Assembly: GCA_051294375.1 (NCBI GenBank)
Contig: JBJCIZ010000995.1
Span: 41,371-48,141 of the forward strand
Direction of reading: 5' to 3'
Origin: Paraspadella gotoi
Lineage: Eukaryota; Animalia; Chaetognatha
Length of the DNA: 6,771 nt
The number at the start of each line of letters is the position of its first letter. Position 1 is the first letter of the stretch. This document shows, one piece after another, positions 1 to 6,503 of this stretch. A model generated the notes under the pieces. The model saw nothing but the letters and a program-made list of their open reading frames with translations. It was not told the DNA's origin and did no database searches. Both the position numbers and the translations under genes were made by a program.

Positions 1-157
1 ATAGAGCCATATTAGAAATTTTTTGTCCATTGAAAGTATTATTAAAAATGTCTAAATATTTGTTTGAGCATGTACTCGCTCTAAATTTTTGACTCACCCT
101 ATTGAGTGCGGCGACCCCTACTAGTATGGTGGACTTAAATCCACCAATCGTTCATCA

Positions 158-230
158 GCGGCCATTGGTGCCGGAGGCAAGTCATTCACCTCCCAACCCA
201 AAGGTCCTGGGTTCTAGCCCAGTGGCTGCC
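158..230 (+). other. tRNA-like sequence (tRNA pseudogene or SINE head)
   Basis: 73 nt. Acceptor stem GCGGCCA (158-164) pairs with TGGCTGC (223-229). T-arm CTGGG/CCCAG around TTCTAG (B-box-like GGTTCTAGCC), A-box-like TGGTGCCGGAGG, variable loop AGGTC. The anticodon stem around CTCCCAA does not pair and the T loop is 6 nt, so this is not a normal tRNA. Confidence 0.7.
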
Positions 231-231
231 T

Positions 232-307
232 AGCAGTTAAGAGGGACGGGGCGCTTAACCCGCCTGTAACATAATGTTACAGCCTGATCTGAAGCTCAGG
301 GACTGCT
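232..307 (+). ncRNA. Putative twister ribozyme, type P5 (copy 1, behind the tRNA-like head)
   Basis: P5 AGCAGT(232-237)/ACTGCT(302-307); TAA; P2' GAGG; GA; T1 CGGG; minimal P1 GCGCT; T^AA (256-258); P2 CCC; T2 GC; P3 CTGTAACAT-A-ATGTTACAG (264-282); P4 CCTGA/TCAGG closing the loop TCTGAAGC (twister L4 pattern UNNNAAGC). T1 contains two G-U pairs. Confidence 0.75.
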
Positions 308-834
308 TATATTGAACGGTTCTGTCATTAACACATATTAATAATTATTGTCTCTTCACTAGCAGGAAATAAATTATCTATATGGCAACCAAAACCAGAT
401 TTGGGCAGCGACCCAAATGACGACAAACCGACAGTAGGTGCATTTGGCCTGCTCCACCCCCAACCCCCACAGACATTCTAGAATTCATGCCTTTTCCACG
501 AAAAGAGAGATTGTCTGTTTGAGCACCTGACAACAAACATTCGCGAGCGACGCGTGTATTATTTTTTTATGCGTGGAAAGGATAATGTCTGCAGGGATCA
601 GACAGGAGCAGACATCGCTGAAAAAAGTGTTCCTATTTTTTTCTCAAAAATTTTATGCTGACCCCTAAGGCTATTATTTTCACGCCCGCATATTTTGTTA
701 CGAAATCGGTTTTGAACCGAACAATAAACTTTGACATTGACAAATCTAGCTTTTGATTCGTTTGACTAATTCATTTTTTTACATTGCAATATTATAAACA
801 AAAGATATTTTTAACAACAGCGTTATATATTATT

Positions 835-1074
835 TTAAACATAGGTTTCGCGATCAACTAATGAAACAAAACTAATGGACCTATAAATATTATTGTTATT
901 ATTATTACGAAAAAAAAGTAAAGATCTGAGAATTTTTTTTTTACATACAATTAATAAGATCATGAAAATCATGCAAATCATGCAAATCACGCAAATGAGG
1001 ATAATGAGCAATAAATGTTCACGCGTGTTATTCCCAGAGGTCACCGGTTCAACAGTAGTAATTGGACTGCTCAT
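835..1074 (-). CDS. 3' part of a putative host terminal exon (stalk, transmembrane helix, cytoplasmic tail), separated from its 5' part by the transposon
   Basis: S/T-rich stretch, a ~24-residue hydrophobic run LLLIILICVICMICMIFMILLIVC, then KKK, and C-terminus ETYV* (TAA at 835-837). Removing the element and one TSD joins it in frame to 6548-6512. Confidence 0.6.
   Translation of the reverse strand: MSSPITTVEPVTSGNNTREHLLLIILICVICMICMIFMILLIVCKKKILRSLLFFRNNNNNNIYRSISFVSLVDRETYV
959..996 (+). repeat. 9-bp tandem repeat (ATCATGCAA) x ~4.2
   Basis: ATCATGAAA ATCATGCAA ATCATGCAA ATCACGCAA AT. Encodes the ICV/ICM/ICM/IFM run of the putative TM helix on the minus strand. Confidence 0.85.
1067..1074 (+). 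repeat. Left target-site duplication CTGCTCAT
   Basis: Identical to 6504-6511 and directly abuts the TIR. Confidence 0.95.
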
Positions 1075-1949
1075 TAGACCTTGCCATATATGAAAAGTTT
1101 TGAAATCAAAAAACGAGTATTGTGTAAATGGTGCCCATACATCATATGAATTTTTTGAACATTTTTTTTCAAAAAAAAATTTACAGTAAATGCTGCCAAC
1201 TTTGAAAAAATGTAAAAAATGGTAAAAATGGACTTTTTGCTAAATATCTTTAAAAGCTTTATTGCTAGAGGGACGAAGCGTAAAAAATTGAATATGTTAC
1301 ATACCTCGCATTATAAATTAAATATTTTTTTCTATGAAAAATTTTTTTTAAAACCAATTGTTTTGGGCAATTTTTGATAAATTTTAAAAAAATGATATTT
1401 TTAACAAATTTTCGTGAAATATTTTTTAAAAAAAATTATAGCGAAATGAATAAAGAGATAATTGCCTTTGTTTTGCTTAAAGAATTTTTAAAAAAGGATT
1501 ATCGGTTAAAGAGTTATAATTTTTTTAAATTAAAAAAAAAATACTTGCCTTAATAATTATTTTTATTTAATAGGTTTGAACTAGGCTTAAAGGGAAAATG
1601 GAATGCACTTTTTTCAGAGTAAATAAAAAAATAGTACATTCTGATTTGACAATGAGTAACTTTAATATCTTGTCTCACCAGGACATTAATTTTTTTTTTT
1701 AAATTTATCATTTTATAATAGGATTATGGCTTTTAAATAAGGTTGTTTTTTTCTATATAAAATAAAAAAAAAAATTGACAAAAGCGATTAAATGATTAAA
1801 AATTGATAAAATGAGACAAAAAGGGTAAAATTAATGAAAGTTAAGCAACTGAGAGAAGATTTGCTTGCTTCTTGTCGGTCAAGAAAAAACAATGGTCATC
1901 AATGGTGCCAAAGAAAGAAAACTAGTTATTCCATTTTTTTCATTCATTA
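1075..1949 (+). repeat. Left terminal inverted repeat (~875 bp)
   Basis: Reverse-complement match to 5604-6503 from the terminus to ...CCATTTTTTTCATTCATTA (1949). Differences are mostly homopolymer lengths, a few substitutions and one 19-nt indel. Confidence 0.95.
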
Positions 1950-2021
1950 TCAATCAATATAAAGAGTCGATTTAGTTTTGATATCTACTGAATATTTTTA
2001 TTGTTATATTTGGAGTTAATA

Positions 2022-2255
2022 ATGTCTTCTATTTATTTGATAAAAACTCTTATAAAAAATCTTCCTTTTTCCAAACTACCGACAAACGCCGATATATTGA
2101 GATATGTCCTATATCTAACTCATGTGGGTATATGTTTACCTAAAGCCATTGATACATGTACAAGAAATATTCTTTCCATCTGGGAAACGGCAGGACTAAT
2201 TCAATGCACCAAACATTTGGTTACCATAAAAAAAGATGTGCTAAAGATATACAAA
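2022..2255 (+). CDS. Transposase exon 1
   Basis: ATG at 2022 within the 2001..2324 ORF (MSSIYLIK...KIYK). Donor AAA|GTAAG at 2256. Confidence 0.75.
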
Positions 2256-2517
2256 GTAAGGATCAATATTACATTATTTAATATGAATATTATATATTCT
2301 AATGTTTTTATTTACATTATGTAACTTGCATAATTTTATTCAATTTTTTGTGCTAAATAAAGAAATGAAATAATGAGGATTTCATGATTTACAACAAGAA
2401 TGTTCATACATGAAAGTCAAAACACGTCTGTTTTTATGTCAAAATATTATTATTCTTAAACTATAAATTTTTTTTCATTTTGGAATTTTACAGATTGTTT
2501 AACTTCACATTTTATAG

Positions 2518-2799
2518 GACTATCGAATTTTGCAAAAGTATCCAAAAATCAAGCAAAACTCCAATTCTTTTAAACAAAAAGAACTTAAGTTTAAAAAAAA
2601 TCTTTCTAAGGGATATTTGGCAATAAATAAAAAAGATATTCAAAAATTGTGTGGAAAAAAAATGGAATTTTTAAATGATCAAATATATGGAAGTCGAAAA
2701 TTTTCAATTGATAAGTCGCATGAAAAAAAAAATGAAATGAATAGATCAGATACATTGGATAAATTTATTGACGAAGGAGCTGGCGGAGATACTCTGAAG
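2518..2799 (+). CDS. Transposase exon 2
   Basis: Acceptor TTTTATAG|GAC, in frame with the 2530 ORF. Donor AAG|GTTTTT at 2800. Confidence 0.75.
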
Positions 2800-2960
2800 G
2801 TTTTTTGTTTAACCTTTTTTAAAATTAATAAGATTATATATAAATAGTTTTGATATTTTATTGAAAGTTAAAATTTAAGAATCAATGTAATTCATTTTAA
2901 AAATTATTTAATTTACTTGTTTTAGCTTGTGATTAATTACCTATTACATTTTATTTTAAG

Positions 2961-3507
2961 GATATGGCGGAGCCAATTATTGAAGAAATGGATTGTAATG
3001 TAGATAATGATCCCGATTTTTTCGTAAAAAAATCAAATAATATTTATATTGATTTGAAAGCACCTAGAGATATTTTATCTTCTAATAAAATACTAGAGGA
3101 AGTGGTTAGGTGCGGCATTAGTTTAAGCCAATGTATTACTTTGGTTGTAGCATTTATAGTAACATGCGGAGGAGATCCTGCTGATTTTATTTTATCCATG
3201 AATACTGAAAGCAGGCGAAAATATAATTTTATGAAAAGTAAAGCAAATACCATAAAAAAATCGTTTAATGCTCCAGATTGTTTTGCTCTTAAATGGGATG
3301 AAAAAAAAATAGGGGAGCATGAAAGATGCAGCATTATTATCTAAGGCGATAACACCTGTATGCACATCGGATCGCCAATATTACCTTCAGGAAAGGCACA
3401 GCATAAAACTGAAAAAATTATTGAGACGTGTCAGAAGTGGGGAATAACAAATACCCATTGTACTGCACCAACTTTTTTAGGTTTTGACACATGTTCTTCC
3501 AATTCGG
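2961..3507 (+). CDS. Transposase exon 3 (both catalytic Asp; contains in-frame TAA at 3342-3344)
   Basis: Acceptor TTTTAAG|GAT. The frame stays open for 54 codons after the TAA (GDNTCMHIG...GFDTCSSNS). Donor G|GTAACT at 3508. Confidence 0.85.
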
Positions 3508-3832
3508 GTAACTAATATCTTCTAAAACATTGATATAAAACTTTTTTTTAATTTTTGGTCGCAGTTAGTGTTTTCCAATGGTAATGACCGTGCTCCTATA
3601 CCAGATCTAAAATCTATAATTTTTAAACTCTTTCTAAATATTAAATTACAAAACGAAAGGAAGGATCCAATACAAAAAATGAACATCTTAAATATAATTT
3701 ACCAACACCCGCACAGTATCATTGGGACACACTGTATATTTTTGAAATTTTAAAATTTTTTACCAAGAATTAAAAATTAATCTTTACTTTATTCATATAA
3801 TATATAATTTTTATATTGGTTGTACCAATTTC

Positions 3833-3866
3833 ATGTCATTATATATGTCATTATATATGTCATTAT
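3833..3866 (+). repeat. 12-bp tandem repeat (ATGTCATTATAT) x ~2.8
   Basis: Directly visible, immediately 5' of twister copy 2. Confidence 0.9.
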
Positions 3867-3926
3867 CTTGTAAGAGTGATGGAGGCCTTAAACCACCAAA
3901 GCCTGTCCAAAGTCAGGGGCAAGATA
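3864..3926 (+). ncRNA. Putative twister ribozyme, type P5 (copy 2, transposase intron 3)
   Basis: P5 TATCTTG/CAAGATA; TAA; P2' GAGT; GA; T1 TGGA(3880-3883) pairs perfectly with TCCA(3906-3909); GGCCT; T^AA (3889-3891); P2 ACC; T2 AC pairs with GT(3912-3913); mini-P3 CAAAG; P4 CCTG/CAGG closing TCCAAAGT. Confidence 0.75.
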
Positions 3927-4001
3927 GCTTATTTATTGAATGAATGGATAATTTTTAAATTGGTTGTACCAATTTCATATATATTTTCTTTTTAAAATAA
4001 G

Positions 4002-4336
4002 GTCAGTTTAATGGAACCGCAAAAAAAATAGAAGAGTATTTTCATCTTAAAATGGGATGGTTAGGTTGTTGGAGACATATTATGGAAATAATCGCATCAG
4101 TTTTATTCAAAAAATATTTATCTACTTCAAAATCTCCAGAGGATGGTTTTTGCAAAATAGTAAAAAATTGGTTAAATCCAAATCTAAAAAATTTTTCATC
4201 AAAATATAAGCCATTATTGCCTTCCTTCCTATCAATAATAAATAAAAAAAGAGAAGCTATGAAAGACTTTTTAAAAAAGACTTTATATGAAGAACAACCG
4301 AGGAAAGACTATAAGGAATTAATCCAACTGAGTTTG
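4002..4336 (+). CDS. Transposase exon 4 (CxxH motif)
   Basis: Acceptor ATAAG|GT completes a Gly codon and reads QFNGTAKKIEEYFHLKMGWLGCWRH. Donor TTG|GTAATT at 4337. Confidence 0.85.
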
Positions 4337-4495
4337 GTAATTATAGATGTATTAAAAATTTATAGTAAAATAGTGTAAAATATTTTGATTCAGTGTGATA
4401 ATTTGTAATCCCTTTTTATTCTGACTGCTAATATATTAAAACTAATTATTAGTTGAATGTAAGAGAGTCTTGATTGAAATGTTGCAGTGACCTGC

Positions 4496-4613
4496 TATGT
4501 CATTATCTTGTAAGAGAGATGGAGGCCTTAGGTCATCAAAGCCTGTCCAAAGTCAGGGGAAAGAGATTTATTAAATGAATAAATAACTTTTATATTGATT
4601 GTACTAATTTCAT
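4496..4613 (+). repeat. ~120-bp diverged copy of 3856-3978
   Basis: Runs from TATGTCATTATCTTGTAAGAG to ...TTGTAC(C/T)AATTTCAT in both intron 3 and intron 4. Confidence 0.9.
4504..4566 (+). ncRNA. Degenerate twister ribozyme copy (copy 3, transposase intron 4)
   Basis: Ungapped homolog of copy 2, 640 bp downstream. T1, P4 and L4 are intact, but TAA is TAG (4529-4531), P2 has a G-A mismatch and a wobble, T2 is weakened (AT/GT) and P5 has two mismatches. Confidence 0.55.
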
Positions 4614-4647
4614 TTATAAATTTATTTTAATATTTTTTTTTTCCAAG

Positions 4648-5418
4648 GTCTTGTTAGGAGAAAACCTAAATAAACCTTTAAAAAAAATTGGAGCTATTAG
4701 CAACGCAAGGTGGATGTCCAAAATTATTTGTTTATTTAAAGCTGCCTTATTAATTGATCATGTTCCTTTTGCAAAAAGTGAAAAACAAACAATATTGAAA
4801 ATGACAGATTTTTTTTTATGTATTTATCTTTATCAGTGGTACAGCTGGAAAAAGGCGGCTGATGCCCCTTTCAATTCTTTGAAACTTATAAAAGACTTAA
4901 CAGAGTGGATGCAAATTGACAAGCCATTAGCTGAAACTGCTTTATTACGTTTTCAAAAACACACATGGTACCTTTGTGCGGAATTAACTCCTTTTTCTTT
5001 ATGTTCGGATTTAGTTAGTGACAGTGAAAAATATGAGATGATATTTGAGATATTAAAATATAAAAATTGTGAATTATCTCTCGGACGTCCTAAAATGGAC
5101 ATAGTTACATCTGAATCAACCCTCTCTTCAAGAATAACTTACAACTCTTTATTTATTTTTCAACGTCAAAACATATCATTAGATTGGATGTTGTATCCTG
5201 TAGAGCAATGGAAAAATTTTGAAAGTTATAAAAGATTTAAATATATCATTAGTAATGTATCAATTATAAATGATAGCTGTGAAAGGGCTGTGCAAACAAC
5301 AAATTTATTAGCCAAAAGATATGAAAATGACGATCACCTGAAAGATGCATTATTAGTTGTAAATGAAGCACGAAAAAACAGGAAAAAAACCATTAAGAAA
5401 GTTTTTGCTCTGAAATGA
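4648..5418 (+). CDS. Transposase exon 5 (RW motif, catalytic Glu)
   Basis: Acceptor T-tract-CCAAG|GTC, in frame with the 4651..5418 ORF. Ends with TGA and has a basic C-terminal tail (RKNRKKTIKK, possible NLS). Confidence 0.9.
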   Translation, partial: VLLGENLNKPLKKIGAISNARWMSKIICLFKAALLIDHVPFAKSEKQTILKMTDFFLCIYLYQWYSWKKAADAPFNSLKLIKDLTEWMQIDKPLAETALLRFQKHTWYLCAELTPFSLCSDLVSDSEKYEMIFEILKYKNCELSLGRPKMDIVTSESTLSSRITYNSLFIFQRQNISLDWMLYPVEQWKNFESYKRFKYIISNVSIINDSCERAVQTTNLLAKRYENDDHLKDALLVVNEARKNRKKTIKKVFALK

Positions 5419-5603
5419 ATATTATTTTTAATTCATCTTTATTTTTATTCATTTATATCTTGTTTCGTTGACGAATTTATCAATAAGTATTAAAACCATT
5501 ATTTATGTACACCCGCCTTACTAAAACTGAATATAAAAATTAGGCATTTTACTTAACACAAATTATAATTCAACTCAGTTTTGGAGAACCAGCTTGATAA
5601 AGG

Positions 5604-6503
5604 TAATGAATGAAAAAAATGGAATAACTAGTTTTCTTTCTTTGGCACCATTGATGACCATTGTTTTTTCTTGACCGACAAGAAGCAAGCAAATCTTCTC
5701 TCAGTTGCTTAACTTTCATTAATTTACCCTTTTTGTCTAATTTTTATCAATTTTTAATCATTTAATCGCCTTTTGTCAATTTTTCTTTTTATTTTATATA
5801 GAAAAAAAACAACCTTATTTAAAAGCCATAATCCTATTATAAAATGATAAATTTAAAAAAAAAAATTAATGTCCTGGAGAGACAAGATATTAAAGTTACT
5901 CATTGTCAAATCAGAATGTACTATTTTTTTATTTACTCTGAGAAAAGTGCATTCCCATTTTCCCTTAAGCCTAGTTCAAACCTATTAAATAAAAATAATT
6001 ATTAAGGCAAGTATTTTTTTTTTAATTTAAAAAAATTATAACTCTTTAACCGATAATCCTTTTTTAAAAATTCTTTAAGCAAAACAAAGGCAATTATCTC
6101 TTTATTCATTTCGCCATATTTTTTTAAAAAAATATTTCACGAAAATTGTTAAAAATATCATTTTTTTAAAAATTTATCAAAAATTGCCCAAAACAATTGG
6201 TTTTAAAAAAAATTTTTCATAGAAAAAAAATTATTTAATTTATAATGCGAGGTATGTAACATATTCAATTTTTTACGCTCTACAAGATAGTTTGGGTTTC
6301 GTCCCTCTAGCAATAAAGCTTTTAAAGATATTTAGCAAAAAGTCCATTTTTTACCATTTTTTTACATTTTTTTCAAAGTTGGCAGCATTTACTGTAAATT
6401 TTTTTTTGAAAAAAAATGTTCAAAAAATTCATATGATGTATGGGCACCATTTACACAATACTCGTTTTTTGATTTCAAAACTTTTCATATATGGCAAGGT
6501 CTA
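5604..6503 (-). repeat. Right terminal inverted repeat (~900 bp)
   Basis: Starts TAATGAATGAAAAAAATGGAATAACTAG and mirrors the left TIR. Carries an extra 19 nt (6280-6298). Confidence 0.95.

What the first reader, a model, noticed from the sequence alone, without database searches (positions are those of the whole stretch)
158..307. tRNA-like cloverleaf fused directly to a type-P5 twister ribozyme
Seen: a 73-nt tRNA-shaped sequence with A/B-box-like motifs is followed after 1 nt by a 76-nt segment. That segment has every twister element in P5-permuted order, with a predicted cut between T256 and A257, 26 nt after the tRNA-like 3' end. Known: twisters occur as P1/P3/P5 permutations and cut U^A; tRNA heads supply internal Pol III promoters to SINEs; HDV-like theta ribozymes sit behind phage tRNAs. 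Inference: this is a Pol III-transcribed tRNA-plus-twister mobile unit (SINE- or retrozyme-like), probably ending in the AT-rich tract near 335-349. I do not recognise it as a described family.
Basis: partly seen in the sequence, partly recalled or inferred. Interest (0 to 1): 0.85.

Follow-up and report, generated by a model that had tools for sequence, protein, structure and literature searches.

The report
Twister ribozyme in tRNA-bearing mobile repeat
This stretch is one copy of a 234-base repeat, present many times in a eukaryote's genome, that joins a tRNA-like piece to a predicted self-cutting twister RNA; it is likely the terminal repeat of a miniature retrotransposon that would use the cut to release its RNA copy, a pairing I did not find described.

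Summary
Largely confirmed. 232-307 parses completely as a P5-permuted twister (cut U256^A257); 1 of 40,000 shuffles matches the descriptor, although Rfam misses it. 158-230 is a degenerate tRNA-Gly-like head (A/B boxes, acceptor stem), not a full cloverleaf. Public contigs show a high-copy dispersed repeat with sharp ends at 125 and 358, not 158 and ~345, here between 4-bp CTAG duplications. The tRNA head lies 33 nt inside, there is no tail, the 3' end is CA, and some 5' junctions carry a purine tract. That fits an LTR better than a SINE. Best reading (0.55): a solo LTR of a Helenus-like Pol III mini-retrotransposon that also carries a twister and would work as a retrozyme, cutting once per LTR to release a unit-length, probably circular RNA. 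Not shown: cleavage, transcription, a primer-binding site, a two-LTR copy. tRNA-bearing LTRs (Helenus), hammerhead LTR retrozymes and tRNA-plus-hammerhead repeats (Schistosoma) are published; nine literature searches gave no tRNA-plus-twister LTR. The scan has noted Helenus-type elements on other DNA, with no twister mentioned, and no look-alike of this sequence. A second twister family lies in two introns nearby.

The parts
121..124 (.). Left target-site duplication, CTAG
   Evidence: ends fixed independently by loose ends; chance of this 4-mer 0.0025
125..358 (+). 234-bp dispersed repeat, termini TA...CA; likely a solo LTR
   Evidence: loose ends before 125 in 80/86/48/14 contigs and behind 358 in 111/104/63/33 contigs of runs X1/X2/X5/X9; longest T run 2
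128..145 (+). 5' hairpin, 7 bp, upstream of the tRNA head
   Evidence: (z -2.98 for 121-160)
146..154 (+). 5' strand of a 9-bp outer stem (with 313-321) that encloses tRNA head and twister
   Evidence: G150A 6.7% and C317T 6.5% of depth, linkage not shown
158..230 (+). tRNA-Gly(CCC)-like head: acceptor stem, A-box-like 166-177, loop relic 190-196, B box 210-219; D and anticodon stems decayed
232..307 (+). P5-permuted twister fold: P5 232-237/302-307, P2 241-244/259-261, G245-A246, T1 247-249/289-291, P1 hexamer 250-255, cut U256^A257, T2 262-263/294-295, P3 264-270/276-282, P4 283-287/296-300
   Evidence: domain order compared with Table 1 of PMC8501958
250..255 (+). Self-complementary P1 hexamer; too tight for a good hairpin, forms a 6-bp duplex with a second copy (-8.3 kcal/mol)
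   Evidence: the second twister family in the window also has a palindromic hexamer (-9.1)
313..321 (+). 3' strand of the outer stem
359..362 (.). Right target-site duplication, CTAG

Best explanation
Bases 125-358 are one copy of a high-copy dispersed repeat that joins a tRNA-derived head to a predicted P5-type twister ribozyme, and it is likely the solo LTR of a miniature non-coding LTR retrotransposon that would propagate like a retrozyme. Shown: the repeat, its ends, the 4-bp duplication, the complete twister anatomy, the A/B boxes, the lack of a T-run terminator. Inferred: in a two-LTR parent, Pol III starts near 158 in the left LTR and reads through primer site, internal region and purine tract into the right LTR; the twister cuts at 256/257 in each LTR; the released RNA (257-358, internal region, 125-256) holds the LTR exactly once, promoter included. 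Its two ends are the two halves of one twister, so they would pair, aided by the outer stem 146-154/313-321, which cannot form in a transcript that starts at 158 of a solo copy. A host ligase would close the circle; a Gypsy-type helper would reverse-transcribe and integrate it with a 4-bp duplication, giving full elements and solo LTRs. A solo copy such as this one is then a dead end, since its own transcript would be cut off from the promoter.
For: Both ends sharp in 4 of 4 runs from 3 studies. CTAG duplication exactly at those ends; flank consensus reads ATAT behind 358 in 3 of 4 runs and ATAT or ATTT before 125, as expected for a 4-bp target. 4-bp duplications mark animal Helenus and plant LTR retrozymes. 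tRNA head internal, as in Helenus LTRs. 3' end CA. In X1 (25 contigs) and X2 (20) the junctions that also match G124 give a consensus ending in a G-rich purine tract, like the 3' ends of Helenus internal regions. No T run over 2 in 234 nt, where only 4 of 131 sampled 234-nt windows lack TTTT. Most copies hold a Watson-Crick pair at 290/248 (96.5% of depth) where this copy has a wobble; minority changes match across T1 (247: 7.5%, 291: 8.4%) and across the outer stem (150: 6.7%, 317: 6.5%), while the other base of each CpG varies less. A second family in the window keeps P2, T1, T2, P4 and P5 through different pairs.
Against: No primer-binding site and no two-LTR copy seen; the one joint from the 3' end back to 125 is a single contig at single-copy depth with unknown letters between. 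The 5' end is TA, whereas all but no exceptions I saw among Helenus LTRs in supplement part 5 begin TG. The purine tract rests on consensus lines with agreement 0.46 from two runs of one study, and is not evident in X5. The matched variant shares are all CpG transitions, other CpG sites vary from 2 to 12%, and linkage is not shown. Lack of variation at catalytic bases is weak evidence, since only 47 changes in the stretch pass 2%. Rfam gives no support at this locus. Cleavage and transcription are untested.
Confidence: 0.55

Rival explanations
1. Non-LTR retrozyme or Schistosoma-type SINE: head-to-tail master copies are transcribed by Pol III, cut to monomers by the twister and inserted by a Penelope-like or LINE helper.
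For: tRNA promoter followed by a ribozyme is the Schistosoma layout. The second twister family in this window has a partial-tandem layout with a 144-bp period. One joint 362 to 125 exists.
Against: No high-depth head-to-tail joint among the 15 best of 44 or 15 of 22 joints shown. Ends are sharp and lie away from the cut site. Duplications of animal non-LTR retrozymes are longer than 4 bp when present.
Confidence: 0.22
2. Ordinary tRNA SINE that captured a twister; uncut transcripts are the template and the ribozyme is a passenger.
For: A and B boxes, decayed cloverleaf, no internal terminator, high copy number.
Against: 33 nt lie upstream of the tRNA head and would be lost from a Pol III transcript; no tail; an intact twister would cut the template, and P1-poor twisters still cleave.
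Confidence: 0.08
3. Non-autonomous rolling-circle DNA element (Helentron/HINE type, features recalled) read on the minus strand; tRNA head and twister are cargo.
For: Sub-terminal inverted repeat 146-154/313-321 and a hairpin 3 nt from one end.
Against: Such elements make no duplication and insert at TT (recalled); this copy has CTAG on both sides and no T at either junction.
Confidence: 0.08
4. The twister fold is a relic or chance match in a repeat that moves for other reasons.
For: No Rfam hit; descriptor written after seeing the sequence.
Against: 1 of 40,000 shuffles; pairs kept across two families; z -3.1.
Confidence: 0.07

Closest known systems
Helenus (TRIMp3), Kojima 2024, PMC10886601
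   Same: tRNA-like unit with A/B boxes inside a short LTR-sized repeat; 4-bp duplication in animals; solo LTRs common; unit not a working tRNA.
   Different: No ribozyme reported (twister 0 mentions); no twister loop-4 motif in an LTR among the supplement's consensus sequences for the motifs tried. Helenus LTRs start TG; this one starts TA. Primer site and second LTR not shown here.
Plant LTR retrozymes, Cervera et al. 2016, PMC4918200
   Same: Ribozyme inside the LTR, 4-bp duplication, solo LTRs, cut-and-circularise route that needs no R region.
   Different: Type III hammerhead, plants, no tRNA-derived promoter noted in the passages read; here a twister and an internal Pol III-type promoter.
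Schistosoma SINE-like hammerhead repeats, as reviewed in PMC6765202
   Same: Pol III promoter upstream of a ribozyme, so the promoter ends up at the 3' end of the cut monomer and single copies cannot propagate.
   Different: Hammerhead, tandem repeats, non-LTR.
Twister T-variants of Perere-3/RTE, Liu et al. 2021, PMC8501958
   Same: Twister in a retroelement, with P3 and a weak P1; linker and P2 resemble the S. mansoni examples.
   Different: P1-type at the 5' end of a coding non-LTR element, cut defines the element's end; here P5-type, cut in mid-element, non-coding.
Theta ribozymes behind phage tRNAs (recalled; one search listed no paper on them)
   Same: Ribozyme directly behind a tRNA-like unit.
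   Different: HDV fold cutting at the tRNA 3' end; here the cut is 26 nt away, the tRNA is decayed and the host is a eukaryote.

Membership tests
Twister ribozyme, type P5 | P2, P4 and two pseudoknots T1, T2 in P5-permuted order | tested here: met
Twister ribozyme, type P5 | Catalytic G, A after the cut, second A, loop-4 U..AA | tested here: met
   G245, A246, U256, A257, A258, U288, A292, A293
Twister ribozyme, type P5 | P1 stem of two or more pairs | tested here: inconclusive
   6-nt palindrome: 1-2 strained pairs in one molecule, 6 between two; P1 defects are tolerated
Twister ribozyme, type P5 | Rfam RF02684 gathering score | tested here: not met
   no match at 232-307; sister family 25.8 of 37.6 bits
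Twister ribozyme, type P5 | Site-specific self-cleavage | not testable with these tools
   needs in vitro assay
Helenus TRIM | tRNA-derived A and B boxes inside the repeat | tested here: met
Helenus TRIM | 4-bp (animal) or 5-bp duplication | tested here: met
   CTAG at the mapped ends, one copy; flank consensus agrees
Helenus TRIM | TG...CA termini | tested here: inconclusive
   CA at 357-358; most junctions start TA at 125, a minority also match G124 preceded by T
Helenus TRIM | Two LTRs with primer site and purine tract between | tested here: inconclusive
   purine tract hinted in X1 and X2; primer site and second LTR not seen; no genome held
LTR retrozyme | Hammerhead ribozyme in each LTR | tested here: not met
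   no hammerhead match; a twister takes its place
LTR retrozyme | Circular RNA between the two cut sites | not testable with these tools
   only contigs available
tRNA SINE (SINE2) | tRNA head at the 5' end | tested here: not met
   head starts 33 nt inside
tRNA SINE (SINE2) | A-rich or simple-repeat tail, variable duplication | tested here: not met
   sharp end at 358, 4-bp duplication
Functional tRNA gene | Full cloverleaf | tested here: not met

The most novel reading that the evidence does not exclude
The first twister-driven LTR retrozyme: a Pol III mini-retrotransposon outside plants whose tRNA-derived promoter and twister sit in each LTR, whose RNA ends are made by the ribozyme instead of a terminator, and whose palindromic P1 lets two LTR copies fold as a double twister so that only two-LTR transcripts are cut and circularised.
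Probability: 0.35. Interest if true: 0.85.

Novelty: new variant of a known kind. Interest (0 to 1): 0.68.

Why it matters
Twister ribozymes are common in eukaryote genomes but have few assigned roles; the one described in a retroelement is 5' trimming of Perere-3/RTE. This family would add a second role, release of a unit-length RNA, and would join two separately described classes, Helenus and LTR retrozymes. It offers a testable answer to how a Pol III mini-retrotransposon without a terminator defines its RNA ends and keeps its promoter. It also shows twisters that Rfam misses (changed T1 pairs, inserted P3, 6-nt P1) at high copy number, in two families within one 6.8-kb window.

Tried and rejected
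No genome is held, so copies could not be read one by one. No RNA holder listed; X9 is only guessed to be RNA and is contigs, so nothing is said on expression. Pattern scans: viral contigs 0 and 0; metagenome contigs 0 and 6; all 6 of 6 lack the stems and the tRNA head by eye and are taken as chance. Genome contigs was not scanned. MAFFT misplaced loop 4 of the three window twisters, so pairs were listed by script and no covariance model was built. The anticodon-stem registers tried were wrong; the count given is by eye. Summed contig depth is not a copy number: the ratio to the flank at the lowest internal place is 6,200-9,400, and 200-300 if overlap inflated it 31-fold. The protein atlas gave no answer; Pfam and PDB did not name the neighbouring transposase. 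The original twister paper was not held. A bacterial promoter/terminator scan found nothing and does not apply. Rejected: functional tRNA gene; theta-type tRNA 3' processing; end of the unit at 335-349.

Full report
Setting. The window is AT-rich DNA with a spliced gene: relatives of the ORF at 4651-5418 align in blocks at about 2980-3509, 4001-4345 and 4648-5410, separated by GT...AG stretches. It is therefore eukaryotic; an animal host is my inference, not a result. No genome is held.

The twister. Read by hand and by script, 232-307 holds every twister element in P5-permuted order: P5 (6 of 6 pairs), P2, G245-A246, T1 (3 of 3, one U.G), a 6-nt P1, U256^A257-A258, T2 (2 of 2), P3 (7 of 7), P4 (5 of 5) and loop 4. 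The order of domains matches Table 1 of Liu et al. 2021 (PMC8501958, section read) after permutation. Rfam gives no twister match here at E up to 10; I attribute that to the changed T1 pairs, the P3 insert and the short P1 (inference). My descriptor matched 8 of 5,000 shuffles of 1-660 and 9 (core) or 1 (core plus P5) of 40,000 shuffles of 125-358. It was written after seeing the sequence and is loose on AT-rich DNA (89 of 500 whole-window shuffles). Independent support comes from a second family at 3866-3924, which Rfam scores as Twister-P5 (25.8 bits, E 0.034) and which keeps P2, T1, T2, P4 and P5 with different letters. McKinley et al. 2024 (PMC11662667, abstract and one results section) report, for P1-type twisters, that P1 and P2 defects and U.G wobbles in the pseudoknots are tolerated, so this copy is predicted to cut. 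That was not tested.

The tRNA head. 158-230 keeps a 7-bp acceptor stem and a T hairpin, an A-box-like 166-177 and a B box 210-219, a CT-CCC-AA loop and AGGTC; a fitted descriptor matched 1 of 40,000 shuffles. The D and anticodon stems are decayed, ARAGORN finds nothing and the best fold is a three-way junction. It is a promoter-type relic, not a tRNA gene.

The repeat. Nine runs of one coded organism from three studies hold the stretch; I laid 4 of the 9 and one of them again. Summed depth over 149-333 is millions against 147 in the flank in X1. Loose ends with unrelated AT-rich flanks stand before 125 (80, 86, 48, 14 contigs) and behind 358 (111, 104, 63, 33); 961 smaller loose-end rows were not shown. 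At those ends the window has CTAG on both sides. The unit thus starts 33 nt before the tRNA head, ends in CA without a tail, and has no T run over 2. This copy differs from most copies mainly by CpG-type transitions (188, 221, 227, 273, 290), so it is an aged copy.

Why an LTR. A SINE transcript would start near 158 and lose 125-157. A 4-bp duplication, an internal tRNA unit and a CA end are the marks of Helenus, described by Kojima 2024 (PMC10886601; parts 1-4 and 6 of 6 read), and 4-bp duplications with a ribozyme in the LTR mark plant retrozymes (PMC4918200, passages). Junction contigs that also match G124 give a consensus ending in a G-rich purine tract in X1 and X2 (25 and 20 contigs, agreement 0.46 and 0.43), not clearly in X5; Helenus internal regions end in similar tracts (supplement part 5 of 11). 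Against: no primer site, no two-LTR copy, a TA start, and only one joint from the 3' end back to 125, at single-copy depth with unknown letters between.

Mechanism (inferred). A cut in mid-element would part a solo transcript from its promoter, the problem noted for the Schistosoma hammerhead repeats (PMC6765202, section 11). Two copies solve it. A transcript from the left LTR, cut once in each LTR, holds the LTR exactly once, and its ends are the two halves of one twister. The outer stem 146-154/313-321 can form only in RNA that includes the part upstream of the Pol III start, as such a monomer does. Minority variants match across this stem (6.7% and 6.5%) and across T1 (7.5% and 8.4%), while the partner bases of the same CpGs vary less (2.3%, 2.7%, at most 3.5%, and one not listed; 40 of 47 rows shown). 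These are CpG transitions and unphased, so this is a hint. Host ligation to a circle and reverse transcription by a Gypsy helper follow the published retrozyme model. Both twister families have a self-complementary P1 hexamer (-8.3 and -9.1 kcal/mol as duplexes), recalling the palindromic hammerheads of Penelope elements that act as dimers; but P1 is dispensable in tested twisters, so dimer dependence is only a possibility.

Novelty. Nine full-text searches listed no paper on a tRNA-plus-twister element or a twister in an LTR; the library lacks most subscription papers, and Repbase could not be searched. The Helenus paper does not mention twisters; twelve short motifs searched in its supplement gave no twister loop in an LTR, though line breaks can hide matches and I read 1 of 11 parts. 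The 2026 preprint on animal retrozymes (10.64898/2026.07.22.740005, abstract and passages) has no mention of twister or tRNA. PMC9695139 and 10.1101/2022.07.19.500677 (passages) place twisters in Perere elements and viroid-like circles. No relatives were found in viral or metagenome contigs. Earlier notes of this scan hold no look-alike and several Helenus-type elements on other genomes, none noted with a twister.

Verdict. A real, high-copy tRNA-plus-twister mobile unit; most likely a solo LTR of a twister retrozyme of Helenus type (0.55). Each part is known, the combination seems not to be: new variant of a known kind, interest 0.68.

Noticed in passing
window 3866-3924 and 4506-4564: A second P5 twister family, two copies, each in an intron of the transposase gene. 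The first is intact (Rfam 25.8 bits) and lies in a unit with direct repeats 144 bp apart (3805-3834, 3949-3978), like a partial-tandem retrozyme; the second has TAG at the cut site and broken P2, T2 and P5 pairs.
   Followed up: partly
window 1075-6503: DNA transposon with long terminal inverted repeats (about 900 bp, starting TAG), an 8-bp duplication CTGCTCAT and a spliced gene of a large unnamed 750-800 aa family (1,841 relatives at E 0.001) with conserved D, CxxH and E; hAT-like by recall; this copy has an in-frame stop near 3342.
   Followed up: partly
window 1-120: End of another high-copy repeat (loose ends behind 120; reverse strand starts TAGGGG), probably a transposon terminus; the tRNA-twister unit inserted 4 nt from it.
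   Followed up: no
window 410-660: GC-richer single-copy stretch with several possible hairpins behind the element; depth equals the flank.
   Followed up: no
window 666-780: Low-copy repeat (depth about twice the flank, other contigs with differences).
   Followed up: no
window 960-990: Short tandem run of a 10-nt unit (aaatcatgc-like), three to four copies.
   Followed up: no
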